This document shows, in pieces, positions 28,148-31,130 of a DNA stretch of 64,000 nt. The stretch comes from Escherichia coli (GTDB lineage: Bacteria; Pseudomonadota; Gammaproteobacteria; Enterobacterales; Enterobacteriaceae). A program made the position numbers and the translations under genes. Location of the stretch: assembly GCF_011045215.1 (NCBI RefSeq), contig NZ_CP049201.1; one strand, written 5' to 3'. The notes under the pieces were generated by a model. It saw only the letters and a list, made by a program, of their open reading frames with translations. It did no database searches and was not told the DNA's origin. How positions within the stretch are numbered: the first letter of the stretch is position 1; every line of letters begins with the position of its first letter.

Positions 28148-29896
28148 TTATAAAAATTCCTCGGTTCTCTCCGTTCTTATAACGTTAGTCTGTGTTCGTC
28201 CTTTAAAACCTCTGGTCAGATATTCAGCCCCATATTCTCTTGCAGCCGCCTTCATGGCCTTACCAAAATCATTAACACTTAATTTTTCTTCTTTGCCTAT
28301 GTACTCCATAAAGGCAAGATAAAGCCTGTACAGACTTGTACGTGGGTTAAGGTCAACTGTTCTCTTACCGCCTCCCATCATCATTCCATGCGGTTCGTCA
28401 AGAAATGCAAGCGCCGCACATAACCCAATGACAGGATCAGTTTCCTGTTTTATTTTCAGAGCTTCGGCACCGTCACGCTGCTCAAGCAATAATTCTCGTG
28501 CTTTTTCTGGATCTGAAAAGTTAGTAAGCAGTCTACGAATAATGACAGGTATTTCTGCCGCTATCTTTTGCGGTAATTCTTTATCATTTTCGGTCTCCCT
28601 TACAATATTATCGAACTGAAAAATTACACGTCGACGTGCAACTCCTCCGGCCCGTTCGGTGAATATCATCGGCACGTTGTTTGTTGCCAGCACGACAGCC
28701 CTGATAATTGCTGTGAAACGCTTCTCATATTTCGGGTTAATTTCCACGGGGTCGCCGCCAGTTATTTTCTTGATTCCCGATCCTTCGCCTGTATATTTCG
28801 GCTGGTCTGTCAGGACAATAAGACGACTTCCGACAACCTGTGCACGCCCGCCAGCATCATCAAGCGATGTCATTTCGGCGCTTACCGTGTTCTGTTTCCC
28901 TGCCAGAAGGGTGGCTATGTGCGTAAATGTGCTCTTGCCGCTCCCGCCGTCTCCTGTGGCCTCAATAAACATTTGCCAGTCGTACCGGTTAGCCATAATC
29001 ATGTACAGCGCGGCGCATATACGCATCATCTTTCGCGGGTCTTTTCCTGCAGCGTGATCAAGCCATTTATGAAAGTTTGGCGCGTTGTCGCGGATGTTCT
29101 CCCCTGGTGCTGGTGGCGTGTACTCAATGCCGTTATGCGTGGTGATCCAGTTATCCAGCGAGTGCGGGGAAAATTCGCCAGTTTTCAGGTCAAACACGCC
29201 ATTAGCGAACGGCAATAAATCACCTGACGGCTCCCCCATTGGCCTGGCCATAACTTTTAAAGCATCCACTGCATTGCTTATTGCTCTCCGGCTAAACGCT
29301 GTTCCGTTTTCTTCGTAAATAGCCACCATTTCACGACTAAGATCCAGTATGCTTACCGGAACCCAAAAATCATCGCGCCAGACGTGGACAACCTCACTCT
29401 CCTGATTCATTGCTACATCCTGAAATCGTTCAGCTAAAAGTTTTGCCCTTTGGCTGTCCGCCATTCTGGAAAGAGATATTTTGTGTTTTTTCTCGGTCCT
29501 TCCTGACAGAATTTCTCCGCGCTCAGCCTGTTCGCGTAACCGTTGCAGGTAATCGCGCCAGTTCTCCGGCTCCCGGTCGGTGATACCTTTGTATAATTTC
29601 GCCTCCTGTACGCCAGCCAGCGCCAGTTTTTCAGCGATAGCGTTGATCTGGATTGGCTCTATCTCCCCCGCGAGATAGACACGTGCAAAGCGGCGTTTCT
29701 CGTCAATAATGCGGATATTCGCCAGGTCTGCCAGTTGCTTTGGCCCCAGATAAACAGGTGGCACGTTATCGCCGTGTTTTCGTCCTTCACTTTCAATCCA
29801 GTGTTGAGCATGGGCGTAAGCATCCGTCCCGGCAAAAATGATTACCTCGGTGAATTTATCCTTCGGCTGATATTTTAAATTCGGTGCGTTTTTCAC
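28148..29896 (-). CDS. replication initiator, P-loop helicase/primase-like (phage/plasmid primase C-terminal, D5-like NTPase)
   Basis: 582-aa ORF with Walker A ATGDGGSGKST and Walker B-like LIVLTDQP; last gene of a coupled operon. Confidence 0.65.
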   Translation of the reverse strand: MKNAPNLKYQPKDKFTEVIIFAGTDAYAHAQHWIESEGRKHGDNVPPVYLGPKQLADLANIRIIDEKRRFARVYLAGEIEPIQINAIAEKLALAGVQEAKLYKGITDREPENWRDYLQRLREQAERGEILSGRTEKKHKISLSRMADSQRAKLLAERFQDVAMNQESEVVHVWRDDFWVPVSILDLSREMVAIYEENGTAFSRRAISNAVDALKVMARPMGEPSGDLLPFANGVFDLKTGEFSPHSLDNWITTHNGIEYTPPAPGENIRDNAPNFHKWLDHAAGKDPRKMMRICAALYMIMANRYDWQMFIEATGDGGSGKSTFTHIATLLAGKQNTVSAEMTSLDDAGGRAQVVGSRLIVLTDQPKYTGEGSGIKKITGGDPVEINPKYEKRFTAIIRAVVLATNNVPMIFTERAGGVARRRVIFQFDNIVRETENDKELPQKIAAEIPVIIRRLLTNFSDPEKARELLLEQRDGAEALKIKQETDPVIGLCAALAFLDEPHGMMMGGGKRTVDLNPRTSLYRLYLAFMEYIGKEEKLSVNDFGKAMKAAAREYGAEYLTRGFKGRTQTNVIRTERTEEFL

Positions 29897-30183
29897 TTCT
29901 TACCTCCCGCAACCAACATTGCCCGGATTTTTTTAATATTCGTGGCTGCACGTCTTGCCACCGCCTGTTGTTTGTTTTCAACCAGAATAAAATCACGCTC
30001 AAACTGACGGCGCGGCATTACACAGTCATATTCGTAAGCCTCACGGCGGTAGGTGATATTGCCTGGCGTAACGTAACGAATAACCACTCGTCCCCCACGT
30101 CTGGTGTCGCGGTAAATATCTCCGTGTCTGATTTCAGGCCGAGCGGGGCCGCTGGCAGTAAAGCCAGAATTTTTCTTTTTCAT
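29893..30183 (-). CDS. hypothetical protein (96 aa), replication operon
   Basis: ORF MKKKNSGFTASGPARPEIRHGDIYRD...; 4-nt overlap with the downstream gene start. Confidence 0.45.
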   Translation of the reverse strand: MKKKNSGFTASGPARPEIRHGDIYRDTRRGGRVVIRYVTPGNITYRREAYEYDCVMPRRQFERDFILVENKQQAVARRAATNIKKIRAMLVAGGKK

Positions 30184-30189
30184 GGTTTT

Positions 30190-30555
30190 TTACTCCTGCG
30201 TCTTGCTCTGAATTACCTGATAACCGCAATCGGTCAGCAATTCGATAAATTCCGGCAATGTGCCGAAACAGCAATCATCACGCAGACGTTCGCGAGAAAC
30301 CTCAACGCCGTTTTCATAATGGCTCACCATGCGTCCGGTAAAATGCAGATCATCATCGTGATGGCACGTTGACGGCTTAATCAGTCGCGCACGTTCCGCC
30401 AGTTCCAGCAATGCTTCAACGCTTCCGGCAATTGCACCATCCGGCAGGTGGTAATTACGCACTATGCGCCCGTTCTCCACATGGACCAGTAGCTGCCCGG
30501 TAAATTTCTCGTCAAACTGAATGCTGTTAAGGTCAGAAATTGACAGGTTATGCAT
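30190..30555 (-). CDS. hypothetical protein (about 121 aa), replication operon
   Basis: ORF 30190..30573; start placed at MHNLSISDLNSIQFDEKF...; ATGCATAA start/stop overlap with upstream gene. Confidence 0.45.
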   Translation of the reverse strand: MHNLSISDLNSIQFDEKFTGQLLVHVENGRIVRNYHLPDGAIAGSVEALLELAERARLIKPSTCHHDDDLHFTGRMVSHYENGVEVSRERLRDDCCFGTLPEFIELLTDCGYQVIQSKTQE

Positions 30556-30772
30556 GGTGCACCTCCTGCACATCAGCCATGATAATTTTTCCGGCCTTAT
30601 CCAGTGCCTGATCGGCTTTTAGCTGCACAAATGCTAAATAATGGGAGATGCATTCTGATTCTCTGGCTGCGTGTTTATGCGCCACACCAGCGATAGCAGA
30701 AATCTCAATAAGTGAATCCATTAGCGTTTTGATAGCGTCTACCGCTGCATCAGACCATGTTGTATTACACAT
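30548..30772 (-). CDS. hypothetical protein (74 aa), replication operon
   Basis: ORF MCNTTWSDAAVDAIKTLMDSLIEISAIAG...; ATGTGTAA overlap with upstream gene. Confidence 0.4.
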   Translation of the reverse strand: MCNTTWSDAAVDAIKTLMDSLIEISAIAGVAHKHAARESECISHYLAFVQLKADQALDKAGKIIMADVQEVHHA

Positions 30773-31130
30773 GCTCCACCTCCTGGCGAATACGGGCAGC
30801 GAATACCATCACGCAGCCATCAGGAGATTGCTGGCGTGCTTCCTGTTCGCTGGTGGCCTCGATGTGAATTACGCGCGGTTGTGCCGTGCTCAGGGCGATA
30901 AAACGCCAGATAAAATTGTTCTCGCATTTCTGAATAAACAGCGTGTTTTCTTCGCGCCCTTTCCATGTTGCCGAGATATAGCCCATGTCATTGAGCATCT
31001 CGCAGGCATCAACCAGCGTATCGGCGGCTACGTGTACAGTGTTTTTACCGTCAGCTATGCAATCACGGTGCACCGCCAGGAAGGTGTATATAAATTTAGG
31101 GTGAGTTTGGGTATGCTGTGTTCCAGCCAT
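30765..31130 (-). CDS. hypothetical protein (121 aa), first gene of replication operon
   Basis: C-terminal portion of the 597-codon open frame; start placed at MAGTQHTQTHPKFIY... with AGGAGT SD 7 nt upstream. Confidence 0.5.
   Translation of the reverse strand: MAGTQHTQTHPKFIYTFLAVHRDCIADGKNTVHVAADTLVDACEMLNDMGYISATWKGREENTLFIQKCENNFIWRFIALSTAQPRVIHIEATSEQEARQQSPDGCVMVFAARIRQEVEHV

What the first reader, a model, noticed from the sequence alone, without database searches (positions are those of the whole stretch)
28148..31130. Tightly coupled five-gene replication operon with recurring ATGNNTAA overlaps
Five leftward genes are joined by 4 to 8-nt start/stop overlaps (ATGTGTAA at 30765..30772, ATGCATAA at 30548..30555, a 4-nt overlap at 29893..29896), and the same ATGTGTAA junction links the antirepressor-like gene to its downstream gene at 32551..32558. 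The terminal product has Walker A/B motifs, but I could not recognise a primase (toprim-like) domain in its N-terminal half. Either a divergent primase or a helicase-only initiator would be informative.
Basis: seen in the sequence. Interest (0 to 1): 0.5.

Follow-up and report, generated by a model that had tools for sequence, protein, structure and literature searches.

The report
Satellite-island replication operon, helicase-only initiator
These five genes are the replication operon of a 12-kb phage-parasitic island (a PICI) closely related to the tested E. coli island EcCICFT073; its last gene is a phage-P4-type helicase and origin binder that has lost the primase, which is ordinary for this family, but two undescribed features sit at the operon's head: a likely antisense RNA and a long stop-free reading frame.

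Summary
The overlaps are real: ATGTGTAA at 30765-30772, ATGCATAA at 30548-30555 and GTGA at 29893-29896. The fourth junction, 30184-30189, is a 6-nt gap. Across 88 related loci, 8-nt overlaps join the small genes (191 junctions), and DUF4222 to helicase is always a 4-nt overlap (77/77).

The locus is a Gram-negative PICI: int, alpA, antA, this operon, then an iteron origin. It lies between 26-bp att repeats inside comM.

The 582-aa protein is 71% identical to EcCICFT073 Pri-Rep and matches only residues 327-763 of P4 alpha (D5_N, SF3 P-loop, origin-binding winged helix). The Zn-ribbon/Toprim primase is absent. A 130-aa domain with no Pfam or NCBIfam match replaces it. Its fold is weakly Toprim-like, the catalytic residues are not conserved, and it is fused to four different ATPase cores.

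The ATGTGTAA at 32551 does not start a separate gene. It opens a 597-codon stop-free frame that runs antisense through a repressor-like gene into the Icd-like gene. This frame is open in 42/42 relatives but shows no amino-acid constraint.

A SymR-like antisense RNA (31125-31197, +) with a covarying terminator covers the Icd-like start.

The operon is ordinary. These two regulatory features were not found described in the paper library searched.

The parts
30765..31130 (-). Gene 1: Icd-like protein, 121 aa, first gene of the operon
   Evidence: NCBIfam NF033153 phage_ICD_like, E 6e-23, residues 73-116. SD AGGAG lies 8 nt before the ATG. Variable sites by codon position are 26/22/54.
30548..30772 (-). 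Gene 2: 74-aa protein of unknown function; 8-nt overlap ATGTGTAA with gene 1
   Evidence: phrog_5146, E 1e-47. Overlap verified. Variable sites by codon position are 22/14/33.
30190..30555 (-). Gene 3: 121-aa protein of unknown function; 8-nt overlap ATGCATAA with gene 2
   Evidence: phrog_340 and phrog_2512. The same start is annotated in relatives. Variable sites by codon position are 30/18/51.
29893..30183 (-). Gene 4: DUF4222 protein, 96 aa; a 6-nt gap (30184-30189) separates it from gene 3
   Evidence: Pfam PF13973, E 1e-18. The junction into this gene is a 2-6 nt gap in nearly all of the 88 loci.
28148..29896 (-). Gene 5: 582-aa replication initiator (Pri-Rep). It is an SF3 helicase with an origin-binding domain and no primase. 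GTGA 4-nt overlap with gene 4
   Evidence: 71% identical over its full length to EcCICFT073 Pri-Rep. 40% identical to P4 alpha residues 327-763. PDB 7OLA E 3e-14 and 1KA8 E 6.5e-8.
29507..29896 (-). N-terminal domain of gene 5 (residues 1-130). It has no Pfam or NCBIfam match. Small alpha/beta fold, weakly Toprim-like
29054..29446 (-). D5_N domain of gene 5 (residues 151-281)
   Evidence: Pfam PF08706, E 2.7e-12.
28652..28957 (-). SF3 P-loop core of gene 5 (DUF5906, residues 314-415). Walker A is GDGGSGKS at 315-322, Walker B is LIVLTDQ at 359-365, and a motif-C-like VVLATNN is at 401-407
   Evidence: Pfam PF19263, E 6e-10. Motif positions. Aligned with P4 alpha and SaPI5 Rep.
28169..28441 (-). 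C-terminal origin-binding winged-helix domain of gene 5 (residues 486-576)
   Evidence: PDB 1KA8 (P4 alpha origin-binding domain), E 6.5e-8. Pfam Pox_D5.
27842..28130 (.). Replication origin: 11 GGTAGAY iterons in two opposed sets flanking an AT-rich stretch, immediately 3' of gene 5
   Evidence: 11 of the window's 16 matches fall here; 0 of 100 shuffles reach 16. GC is 30-33% at 27850-28049. The same iteron follows EcCICFT073 pri-rep. This layout is described in PMC6092414.
31125..31197 (+). Predicted cis-antisense small RNA (SymR-like). It is complementary to the SD and start codon of gene 1 and ends in an intrinsic terminator
   Evidence: Rfam RF01809: 37 bits against a gathering score of 61, E 2e-5, full model length; found at the same place in L027, L036 and L063. 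Terminator stem: 94.9% of cells paired, 6 pairs changed on both sides, slid controls 35-52%. A -10 TATGCT sits at 31112-31117.
30765..32558 (-). Stop-free 597-codon frame. It starts at the ATG of ATGTGTAA that overlaps the antA stop, runs antisense through the + strand genes, and ends as gene 1
   Evidence: 0 stops against 27 and 24 in the other two frames; shuffles give a mean of 23.8 and a minimum of 8. Open in 42/42 loci with this junction, in 9/9 annotated relatives and in EcCICFT073. No codon periodicity in its first 270-399 nt.
31324..31629 (+). Opposite-strand YlcI/YnfO-family gene. Ribbon-helix-helix-like by eye, so a candidate repressor of the divergent region
   Evidence: NCBIfam NF041551, E 1e-16. 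Annotated in relatives. The RHH assignment is my reading of the sequence and was not tested.
32501..32528 (+). Intrinsic terminator of the + strand unit, convergent with antA. It explains the conserved 'SAPLPERLCE' stretch of the bridging frame
   Evidence: 12-pair stem followed by a T run. Conserved in all relatives.
32551..33351 (-). antA/AntB-family antirepressor-like gene. Its stop overlaps the start of the bridging frame
   Evidence: Pfam PF08346, E 6e-23. SD GGAGGA lies 8 nt before the ATG at 32558.
33404..33592 (-). alpA (PICI activator family)
   Evidence: Pfam PF05930, E 3e-18.
33956..35206 (-). Tyrosine integrase
   Evidence: Pfam Phage_integrase and Arm-DNA-bind_3.
23027..35232 (.). 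The whole 12.2-kb island, bounded by the 26-bp direct repeat AATTAACTACACCATTAACTACACCG and inserted in comM
   Evidence: Repeats at 23027-23052 and 35207-35232. The ComM N-terminus is encoded to the right of the island and the ComM body at 21598-23001.

Best explanation
SHOWN. The region is the replication operon of a Gram-negative phage-inducible chromosomal island (PICI) of the EcCICFT073 type. The terminal 582-aa product is the island's initiator. It is a P4-alpha-type protein made of a D5_N domain, an SF3 helicase core and a C-terminal winged helix. An origin of GGTAGAY iterons lies immediately downstream. It has no Zn-ribbon and no active Toprim primase.

INFERRED. The C-terminal winged helix binds the iterons. 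Priming must come from the host (DnaG) or from the helper phage.

SHOWN. The first 130 residues are a separate portable domain with no Pfam or NCBIfam match. The same domain is joined to four unrelated ATPase cores, each core with its own iteron set.

INFERRED. This domain supplies a core-independent function, such as docking a host or island partner, rather than catalysis.

SHOWN. The genes are chained by SD-ATG-NN-stop junctions (8 nt), one short gap, and a 4-nt overlap. This pattern is conserved across the family.

INFERRED. Terminating ribosomes re-initiate at each junction, so the mRNA stays covered with ribosomes and protected from Rho. Expression of the helicase then depends on translation of the first gene.

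INFERRED, with support from covariation. That first gene (Icd-like) is repressed by a cis-antisense RNA (SymR-like, 31125-31197 on the + strand) that covers its SD and start codon. The logic is the same as the C4-icd-ant circuit of phage P1.

INFERRED, more speculative. When the helper phage induces alpA/antA transcription, ribosomes enter the stop-free 597-codon frame at the antA stop and arrive at the Icd-like gene by elongation. They would bypass the antisense block and keep the 1.4-kb antisense stretch translated, which would protect it from Rho.
For: PICI identity:
- int, alpA, antA, Icd-like, DUF4222, Pri-Rep, ProQ/FinO, PerC and DUF2213 occur in the same order as in annotated E. coli islands and in EcCICFT073.
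- 26-bp att repeats bound the island.
- Pri-Rep is 71% identical to the EcCICFT073 protein and the downstream iterons are the same.
- The EcCICFT073 pri-rep-ori segment was tested for plasmid maintenance in E. coli, and deleting pri-rep cut island transfer from about 1e5 to tens (PMC6092414).

Helicase-only:
- Pfam finds D5_N, DUF5906 and Pox_D5 only.
- The alignment covers P4 alpha 327-763 only. Alpha residues 1-326 carry Zn_Ribbon_Prim and Toprim_3.
- hhalign of the N-domain profile against alpha finds nothing.
- The positions matching the Toprim Glu and DxD are A22 and A76-G77-x78, and they are not acidic across the family.

Modularity:
- The N-domain is fused to D5_N/DUF5906, AAA_25, DUF927 and VapE cores.
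- DNA identity to relatives breaks at about residue 129.
- Iterons differ with the core.

Coupling:
- Junction statistics over 88 loci.
- An SD precedes every start.
- P4's own left operon has 8-nt overlaps.

Antisense RNA:
-.
- G-U pairs work only on the + strand.

Bridging frame:
-.
- In EcCICFT073 a remnant of about 50 antA codons is fused in-frame to it.

Background:
- Translation shields mRNA from Rho, and sRNA binding at an RBS causes polarity (PMC12360218).
- P1 Icd is apparently required for ant expression, and ant is under C4 RNA control (PMC8201110).
Against: - No expression data are available. The operon, the coupling, the antisense RNA and the role of Rho all rest on sequence.
- The SymR match is below Rfam's gathering score (37 against 61 bits), and its promoter is a weak consensus match (-10 only).
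- 14 of the 80 viral-contig loci have a short Icd-like frame of 128-145 codons. The bridging frame is therefore dispensable, and the operon probably has its own promoter.
- No promoter for the operon passed the consensus scan in 31131-31323.
Confidence: 0.75

Rival explanations
1. The N-terminal 130 residues are a very divergent but active primase, so the protein is a true primase-helicase like P4 alpha.
Against: There is no Zn-ribbon and no Toprim Pfam hit. The domain is only about 130 aa, whereas a DnaG RNA-polymerase domain is about 300 aa. The canonical Glu is Ala and the DxD is absent and variable. Foldseek against PDB is not significant. The NCBI name comes from TIGR01613, which matches residues 227-490, that is, the helicase part. 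The host DnaG is available in DH5alpha.
Confidence: 0.12
2. The overlaps are only genome compaction and scars of cassette shuffling. The small genes are swapped at a conserved junction, CAGGAGGTG-N4-ATG-NN-TAA, and the overlaps play no regulatory part.
For: The number of small genes between Icd-like and DUF4222 varies from 1 to 5, with the same junction sequence recurring. Overlaps of 4 and 8 nt are common in phage operons generally (my knowledge). P4 has them too.
Against: Junction class is position-specific and conserved: always 4 nt into the helicase, always a small gap into DUF4222. Every start has an SD at the correct spacing. Cassette shuffling and translational coupling are not mutually exclusive.
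Confidence: 0.25
3. The 597-codon frame encodes a genuine long Icd-like protein whose sequence matters, as many NCBI annotations of 380-530 aa 'Icd-like proteins' imply.
For: At least 720 protein clusters in public data are this long ORF. It has an SD and a start coupled to antA. The frame is open in 42/42 loci.
Against: Variable sites in its first 270-399 nt are 27/27/26 and 36/36/30 by codon position, against about 1:1:2-3 in all neighbouring genes. The middle is mosaic and non-homologous between elements. Much of it is antisense to a conserved + strand gene. Its one conserved 'peptide' is a + strand terminator hairpin. It has no Pfam, NCBIfam or PHROG family. It is absent from 14 of the 80 viral-contig loci.
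Confidence: 0.15
4. The element is a P4-like satellite, not a PICI.
For: The initiator and its origin-binding domain are P4-alpha homologues. The integrase is of the P4 type, with an arm-binding domain. The operon layout and 8-nt overlaps resemble P4's left operon.
Against: None of the P4 markers psu, delta, sid or epsilon is seen in the island's ORFs. The gene order matches EcCICFT073, including alpA, PerC and DUF2213. The initiator is 71% identical to the PICI protein but 40% to P4 alpha.
Confidence: 0.05

Closest known systems
EcCICFT073 (E. coli PICI) pri-rep operon and ori (Fillol-Salom et al. 2018, PMC6092414)
   Same: Same gene order: int, alpA, opposite-strand YlcI/YnfO gene, Icd-like, small genes, DUF4222, Pri-Rep, iteron ori, PerC. 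Pri-Rep is 71% identical. The GGTAGAY iterons are the same. The 4-nt DUF4222/Pri-Rep overlap, the open bridging frame and the antisense hairpin are all present.
   Different: The window island has an intact antA gene, where EcCICFT073 keeps only about 50 codons of it. It has two small genes between Icd-like and DUF4222 instead of four. It is integrated in comM and has different downstream cargo: ProQ/FinO and DUF2213 here, SSB and capsid genes in CFT073.
Phage P4 alpha protein (primase-helicase) and the P4 left operon
   Same: D5_N, SF3 helicase and origin-binding winged helix are 40% identical over 438 residues. An iteron origin is bound by the C-terminal domain (PDB 1KA8). In both, the initiator is the last gene of a leftward operon of small genes joined by 8-nt overlaps.
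   Different: P4 alpha has an N-terminal Zn-ribbon plus Toprim primase (residues 30-299). Here a 130-aa domain with no detectable sequence relation to it takes that place. P4 immunity uses the CI RNA, whereas here a cis-antisense RNA is predicted.
SaPI5 Rep and related staphylococcal self-loading helicases (PDB 7OLA)
   Same: The D5_N/SF3 helicase core is homologous (E 3e-14, residues 225-430). Both are satellite-encoded initiators next to an iteron origin.
   Different: The SaPI protein is 797 aa with a different N-terminal region. Sequence identity is low and it comes from the Gram-positive lineage.
Phage P1 immI circuit (C4 antisense RNA, icd, ant)
   Same: An Icd-family gene at the head of a coupled unit is placed under antisense RNA control at its translation start. 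Downstream expression depends on icd (PMC8201110; the Rho-dependent mechanism is from my memory of Biere, Citron and Schuster 1992).
   Different: In P1 the RNA is processed from the same transcript and acts at upstream target sites, and ant lies downstream of icd. Here the RNA is encoded in cis on the opposite strand, antA lies upstream, and the downstream cargo is the replication genes. There is no Rfam C4 match.
SymR/SymE of E. coli (Rfam RF01809; Kawano et al. 2007, PMC1891008)
   Same: A roughly 75-nt RNA antisense to the SD and start codon of a potentially toxic gene, with its promoter embedded in the target ORF, a two-hairpin layout, and a full-length match to the model.
   Different: The score is below the family threshold (37 against 61 bits). 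The target protein is Icd-like, not SymE (AbrB fold). The target heads a five-gene operon.

Membership tests
Gram-negative PICI (EcCICFT073 type) | Integrase plus AlpA-family activator at one end, co-oriented with the rest of the island | tested here: met
   Pfam Phage_integrase and Phage_AlpA at 33956-35206 and 33404-33592 on the minus strand.
Gram-negative PICI (EcCICFT073 type) | pri-rep gene followed immediately by an origin made of two iteron sets flanking an AT-rich region | tested here: met
   11 GGTAGAY iterons at 27842-28130 around a stretch of 30-33% GC. The same iteron is present in EcCICFT073. The definition is from PMC6092414.
Gram-negative PICI (EcCICFT073 type) | Size of about 10-15 kb, own att site, no full set of phage structural or lysis genes | tested here: met
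   12.2 kb between 26-bp direct repeats in comM. The ORFs in 23000-28000 give only ProQ, PerC, DUF2213 and HTH hits.
Gram-negative PICI (EcCICFT073 type) | Induction, replication and packaging depend on a helper phage | not testable with these tools
   This needs experiments. It has been shown for the related EcCICFT073 (PMC6092414).
Gram-negative PICI (EcCICFT073 type) | Unidirectional transcription of the island | tested here: inconclusive
   Most genes are leftward, but a + strand module (YlcI/YnfO gene, small ORF, predicted small RNA, two + strand terminators) is embedded at 31125-32528. EcCICFT073 has the same embedded module.
P4 alpha-type primase-helicase | N-terminal zinc ribbon (Zn_Ribbon_Prim) | tested here: not met
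   Present in P4 alpha residues 30-66. There is no hit in the 582-aa protein.
P4 alpha-type primase-helicase | Toprim primase domain with a conserved Glu and DxD | tested here: not met
   No Toprim Pfam hit. hhalign against alpha finds nothing. The equivalent positions are A22 and A76-G77-x78 (the equivalence is my reading of the strand pattern, not a structural superposition).
P4 alpha-type primase-helicase | D5_N, SF3 P-loop helicase and C-terminal origin-binding winged helix | tested here: met
   Pfam D5_N, DUF5906 and Pox_D5. 40% identity to alpha 327-763. PDB 1KA8, E 6.5e-8.
SF3 helicase | Walker A, Walker B and motif C (Asn sensor) in one P-loop domain | tested here: met
   GDGGSGKS at 315-322, LIVLTDQ at 359-365 and VVLATNN at 401-407, aligned with the same motifs in P4 alpha and SaPI5 Rep. 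ATPase and helicase activity were not tested.
SymR antisense RNA (Rfam RF01809) | Score at or above the family's gathering threshold | tested here: not met
   37 bits against 61. It is therefore called SymR-like and not filed as a member.
SymR antisense RNA (Rfam RF01809) | Encoded opposite the SD and start codon of its target, with the promoter inside the target ORF | tested here: met
   The 31125-31197 + strand stretch contains CAT (the complement of the ATG at 31128-31130) and the anti-SD CUCC. A -10 TATGCT lies at 31112-31117, inside codons 5-7 of the Icd-like gene. The SymR layout is described in PMC1891008. The transcript itself has not been observed.
Translationally coupled operon | Stop/start overlaps or near-abutting junctions with an SD inside the upstream gene, conserved in relatives | tested here: met
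   Functional coupling (re-initiation) was not tested.

The most novel reading that the evidence does not exclude
Under this reading, EcCICFT073-type islands control replication by a two-layer translational device that I did not find described.

Layer 1: a SymR-like cis-antisense RNA blocks initiation at the Icd-like gene and, through tight coupling and Rho polarity, silences the whole replication operon.

Layer 2: a 1.1-1.4 kb frame kept free of stop codons, but with no amino-acid constraint, lets ribosomes that start at the antA stop ride a helper-induced read-through transcript through the antisense of the repressor-like gene. They would bypass the blocked start and protect this antisense RNA from Rho. 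This would be a translated 'excludon'.

In addition, the conserved 130-aa N-terminal domain would be a vestigial Toprim reused as a portable adaptor. It would let any of four helicase types prime through a host factor.
Probability: 0.3. Interest if true: 0.7.

Novelty: new member of a known kind. Interest (0 to 1): 0.42.

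Why it matters
The operon itself adds little, because it is an orthologue of a replicon already tested in EcCICFT073.

Three points could matter to people who work on phage satellites:
- The protein called 'primase' or 'Pri-Rep' in these islands has no primase domain. How these replicons are primed is therefore an open question that can be tested.
- A small domain with no database family match is shared at high DNA identity by four unrelated helicase cores, each with its own iterons. That points to a common partner and to cassette exchange of the helicase together with its origin.
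- The model island EcCICFT073 carries the same predicted antisense RNA and the same stop-free bridging frame. A few point mutations there could test a new way of linking helper-phage induction to satellite replication.

Tried and rejected
- Scans of genome contigs: the N-domain alignment had no usable conserved stretch. The single sequence found only one locus, a Citrobacter contig, L005. I used E. coli genomes and viral contigs instead.
- The afdb50 fold library was not available.
- A profile search of the N-domain against PDB sequences gave only noise. hhalign against P4 alpha found nothing.
- Foldseek against PDB was not significant, so I keep the Toprim assignment tentative.
- Rfam at gathering thresholds found nothing in the operon. 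There is no C4, IsrK or P4 CI-type RNA match.
- Literature searches for 'Icd-like', 'YlcI/YnfO' and SymR together with PICI returned nothing relevant.
- BLASTP of Icd-like against P4's 'cI ORF' gave only a 20-residue match, so I claim no homology.
- I asked whether the stop-free frame is a by-product of + strand coding. I rejected this because stops in that frame arise from Y|TA and T|CA patterns across + codons, which are not rare (my derivation). In addition, the frame is open in stretches with no annotated + gene, in non-homologous segments, and after the antA deletion in EcCICFT073.
- I did not try to separate the two strands by dN/dS, because the third codon positions of the bridging frame and of the + strand ORFs coincide.

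Full report
**Observation**

- On the minus strand, ATGTGTAA lies at 30765-30772, ATGCATAA at 30548-30555 and GTGA at 29893-29896.
- The junction between the 121-aa gene and DUF4222 is a 6-nt gap (AAAACC, 30184-30189), not an overlap.
- Every start has a Shine-Dalgarno sequence 6-9 nt upstream.
- NCBI annotates the same boundaries in related E. coli islands.

All five genes are real coding genes. In alignments of 10-35 distinct relatives, variable sites by codon position are 26/22/54, 22/14/33, 30/18/51, 35/32/61 and 48/43/97.

The pattern is not chance. The 64-kb window has only three ATG-type 8-nt junctions between ORFs of at least 60 codons, and all three are in this island. In 88 related loci I counted 191 junctions with an 8-nt overlap and 14 with an 11-nt overlap. 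DUF4222 to helicase is a 4-nt overlap in 77 of 77 cases (39 ATGA, 38 GTGA). The junction into DUF4222 is nearly always a 2-6 nt gap.

The number of small genes between Icd-like and DUF4222 varies from 1 to 5. They share a junction of the form CAGGAGGTG-N4-ATG-NN-TAA, in which the SD is read as Gln-Glu-Val at the end of the upstream protein.

**What the locus is**

The genes sit in a 12.2-kb island bounded by a 26-bp direct repeat (23027-23052 and 35207-35232) and inserted in comM.

From right to left the island carries:
- a tyrosine integrase, alpA and an antA-family gene;
- an opposite-strand YlcI/YnfO gene;
- the five genes;
- an iteron region;
- ProQ/FinO, PerC and DUF2213 genes.

This is the layout of Gram-negative PICIs. 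The tested island EcCICFT073 has the same order. About 1,800-1,900 of 5,426 complete E. coli genomes hold parts of this module.

**The 582-aa protein**

Pfam finds D5_N (residues 151-281), DUF5906 (314-415) and Pox_D5 (515-572). It finds no Toprim, Zn-ribbon or primase-polymerase domain.

NCBI's name 'DNA primase family protein' comes from TIGR01613, which matches residues 227-490, that is, the helicase part.

The protein aligns with P4 alpha residues 327-763 at 40% identity (E 3e-108). Alpha's first 326 residues hold Zn_Ribbon_Prim and Toprim_3.

Among solved structures it matches SaPI5 Rep (7OLA) over the helicase core, and the P4 alpha origin-binding domain (1KA8) over residues 486-576.

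Walker A, Walker B and a motif-C-like Asn are present.

The protein is 71% identical over its full length to EcCICFT073 Pri-Rep. That island's pri-rep-ori segment was tested for plasmid maintenance, and its deletion cut island transfer by orders of magnitude (PMC6092414).

Immediately 3' of the gene lie 11 GGTAGAY iterons in two opposed sets around an AT-rich stretch. The same iteron follows EcCICFT073 pri-rep.

I conclude that the protein is the island's origin-binding SF3 helicase and that it has no primase.

**The N-terminal domain**

Residues 1-130 have no Pfam or NCBIfam match. An exhaustive search of 1.84 billion representative proteins found only 101 relatives.

The domain is fused to four different ATPase cores:
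- D5_N/DUF5906;
- AAA_25 (RepA-type);
- DUF927;
- VapE.

DNA identity between the window and islands with other cores breaks at about residue 129. The iterons change with the core: CGGGATA with DUF927, and a different set again with RepA. The helicase and its origin therefore appear to be exchanged as a cassette, while DUF4222 and the N-domain stay.

By the strand pattern, the positions of the Toprim Glu and DxD are A22 and A76-G77-x78, and they are not acidic across the family.

My reading is a non-catalytic, possibly Toprim-derived adaptor domain. Its function is unknown. Candidates are docking of host primase or of another shared partner.

**The ATGTGTAA after antA**

This ATG has an SD (GGAGGA, 8 nt upstream), but it does not start a separate gene.

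It opens a 597-codon frame that runs through the antisense of the + strand genes, across the divergent control region, and into the Icd-like gene.

How unusual the frame is:
- In the window's 1,420-nt bridge this frame has 0 stops. The other two frames have 27 and 24. In 20,000 shuffles the mean is 23.8 and the minimum 8.
- The frame is open in all 9 annotated relatives, although the middle is mosaic and lengths differ by about 500 nt.
- It is open in 42 of 42 loci with this junction.
- It is open in EcCICFT073, where a remnant of about 50 antA codons is fused in-frame to it.
- At least 720 protein clusters in public data are this ORF, and many are named 'Icd-like protein'.

Yet its first 270-399 nt show no codon periodicity (27/27/26 and 36/36/30 variable sites). 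Its one conserved 'peptide' is a strong + strand terminator hairpin at 32501-32528.

14 of the 80 viral-contig loci have a short frame. In the one I inspected (L040), the upstream genes are on the other strand.

So the frame appears to be kept open without selection on its amino-acid sequence, and, as far as I checked, only where a co-directional gene lies upstream.

**An antisense RNA at the operon's first start**

A permissive Rfam scan matched SymR at 31125-31197 on the + strand (37 bits against a gathering score of 61; E 2e-5; full model). It matched at the same place in three relatives.

The stretch is complementary to the SD and ATG of the Icd-like gene. A -10 hexamer lies 7 nt upstream, inside the Icd-like ORF. 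The symR promoter likewise lies inside symE (PMC1891008).

In 23 distinct versions, the 3' hairpin with its U tail keeps 94.9% of cells paired. Six pairs are changed on both sides, and slid controls give 35-52%. Several pairs are G-U, which fits only the + strand.

I regard a short cis-antisense RNA as likely, but the transcript has not been observed.

**Mechanism (inferred)**

Translation shields mRNA from Rho, and an sRNA that blocks an RBS causes polarity on downstream genes (PMC12360218). In phage P1, icd is apparently required for ant expression, and ant is under C4 antisense RNA control (PMC8201110).

By analogy, I propose three steps:
1. The antisense RNA would block Icd-like translation.
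2. The tight junctions would pass that block down to the helicase gene.
3. The stop-free frame would let ribosomes coming from antA on a helper-induced read-through transcript bypass the blocked start, and would keep the antisense stretch translated.

This model is untested. No promoter passed the consensus scan in 31131-31323. The short-frame elements show that the bridge is not essential.

**Verdict**

Three things deserve follow-up:
- the portable N-terminal domain;
- the predicted antisense RNA;
- the stop-free bridging frame.

All three are also present in the model island EcCICFT073.

Noticed in passing
window 30765-32558 (-): A 597-codon frame with no stops links the antA stop to the Icd-like gene through the antisense of + strand genes. 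It is open in 42/42 related loci and in EcCICFT073 but shows no codon periodicity in its first 400 nt.
   Followed up: yes
window 31125-31197 (+): A sub-threshold SymR (RF01809) match lies antisense to the Icd-like SD and start codon. Its terminator hairpin covaries in 23 distinct versions.
   Followed up: yes
window 23027-23052 and 35207-35232: The 26-bp direct repeat AATTAACTACACCATTAACTACACCG bounds the island. The island splits comM: the gene body is at 21598-23001 and the first ~58 codons are encoded to the right of 35232.
   Followed up: partly
window 32501-32528 (+) and 32231-32250 (+): Two intrinsic-terminator-like hairpins on the + strand end the small rightward unit head-on against antA. 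The first lies inside the bridging frame and explains its conserved 'SAPLPERLCE' stretch.
   Followed up: partly
window 31232-31285: Inverted and repeated 9-mers (TGGTATTCA at 31232, TGAATACCA at 31254, TGGTATTCA at 31277) lie in the divergent region between the Icd-like gene and the YlcI/YnfO gene. They look like operators for the RHH-like protein.
   Followed up: no
window 27099-27430: An AT-rich stretch (22-35% GC) carries at least 4 direct and several inverted copies of CTCCCCACTTTT / AAAAGTGGGG, between the 115-aa ORF (27424-27771) and the ProQ/FinO gene. Its role is unknown; a binding-site array or a packaging site are possibilities.
   Followed up: no
L003 1977-3389, L004 1253-3385, P0006: The same ~130-aa N-terminal domain is fused to RepA-type (AAA_25), DUF927 and VapE ATPase cores in sister islands. 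The downstream iterons change with the core (for example CGGGATA x12 with DUF927).
   Followed up: yes
L090 (phage P4) 8168-8175 and 7888-7895: P4's own left operon, as annotated (cI ORF / epsilon / ORF151), is joined by the same kind of 8-nt overlaps upstream of alpha.
   Followed up: partly
L092 (E. coli CFT073) 6749-8053: In EcCICFT073, antA is reduced to about 50 N-terminal codons that are fused in-frame to the bridging frame (434 open codons; 25 and 30 stops in the other frames).
   Followed up: yes
L010 158-225, L016 103-170, L027 487-554, L065 196-263: The Rfam int-alpA RNA motif (RF02996, 45.5 bits, above its threshold) is present in several related islands. It was not reported in the window's island at gathering thresholds.
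   Followed up: no
window 27424-27771 (-): A 115-aa ORF directly after the origin has no Pfam match. In a close relative (L001) this position holds a truncated RepA-family helicase pseudogene, suggesting a past exchange of replication cassettes.
   Followed up: no
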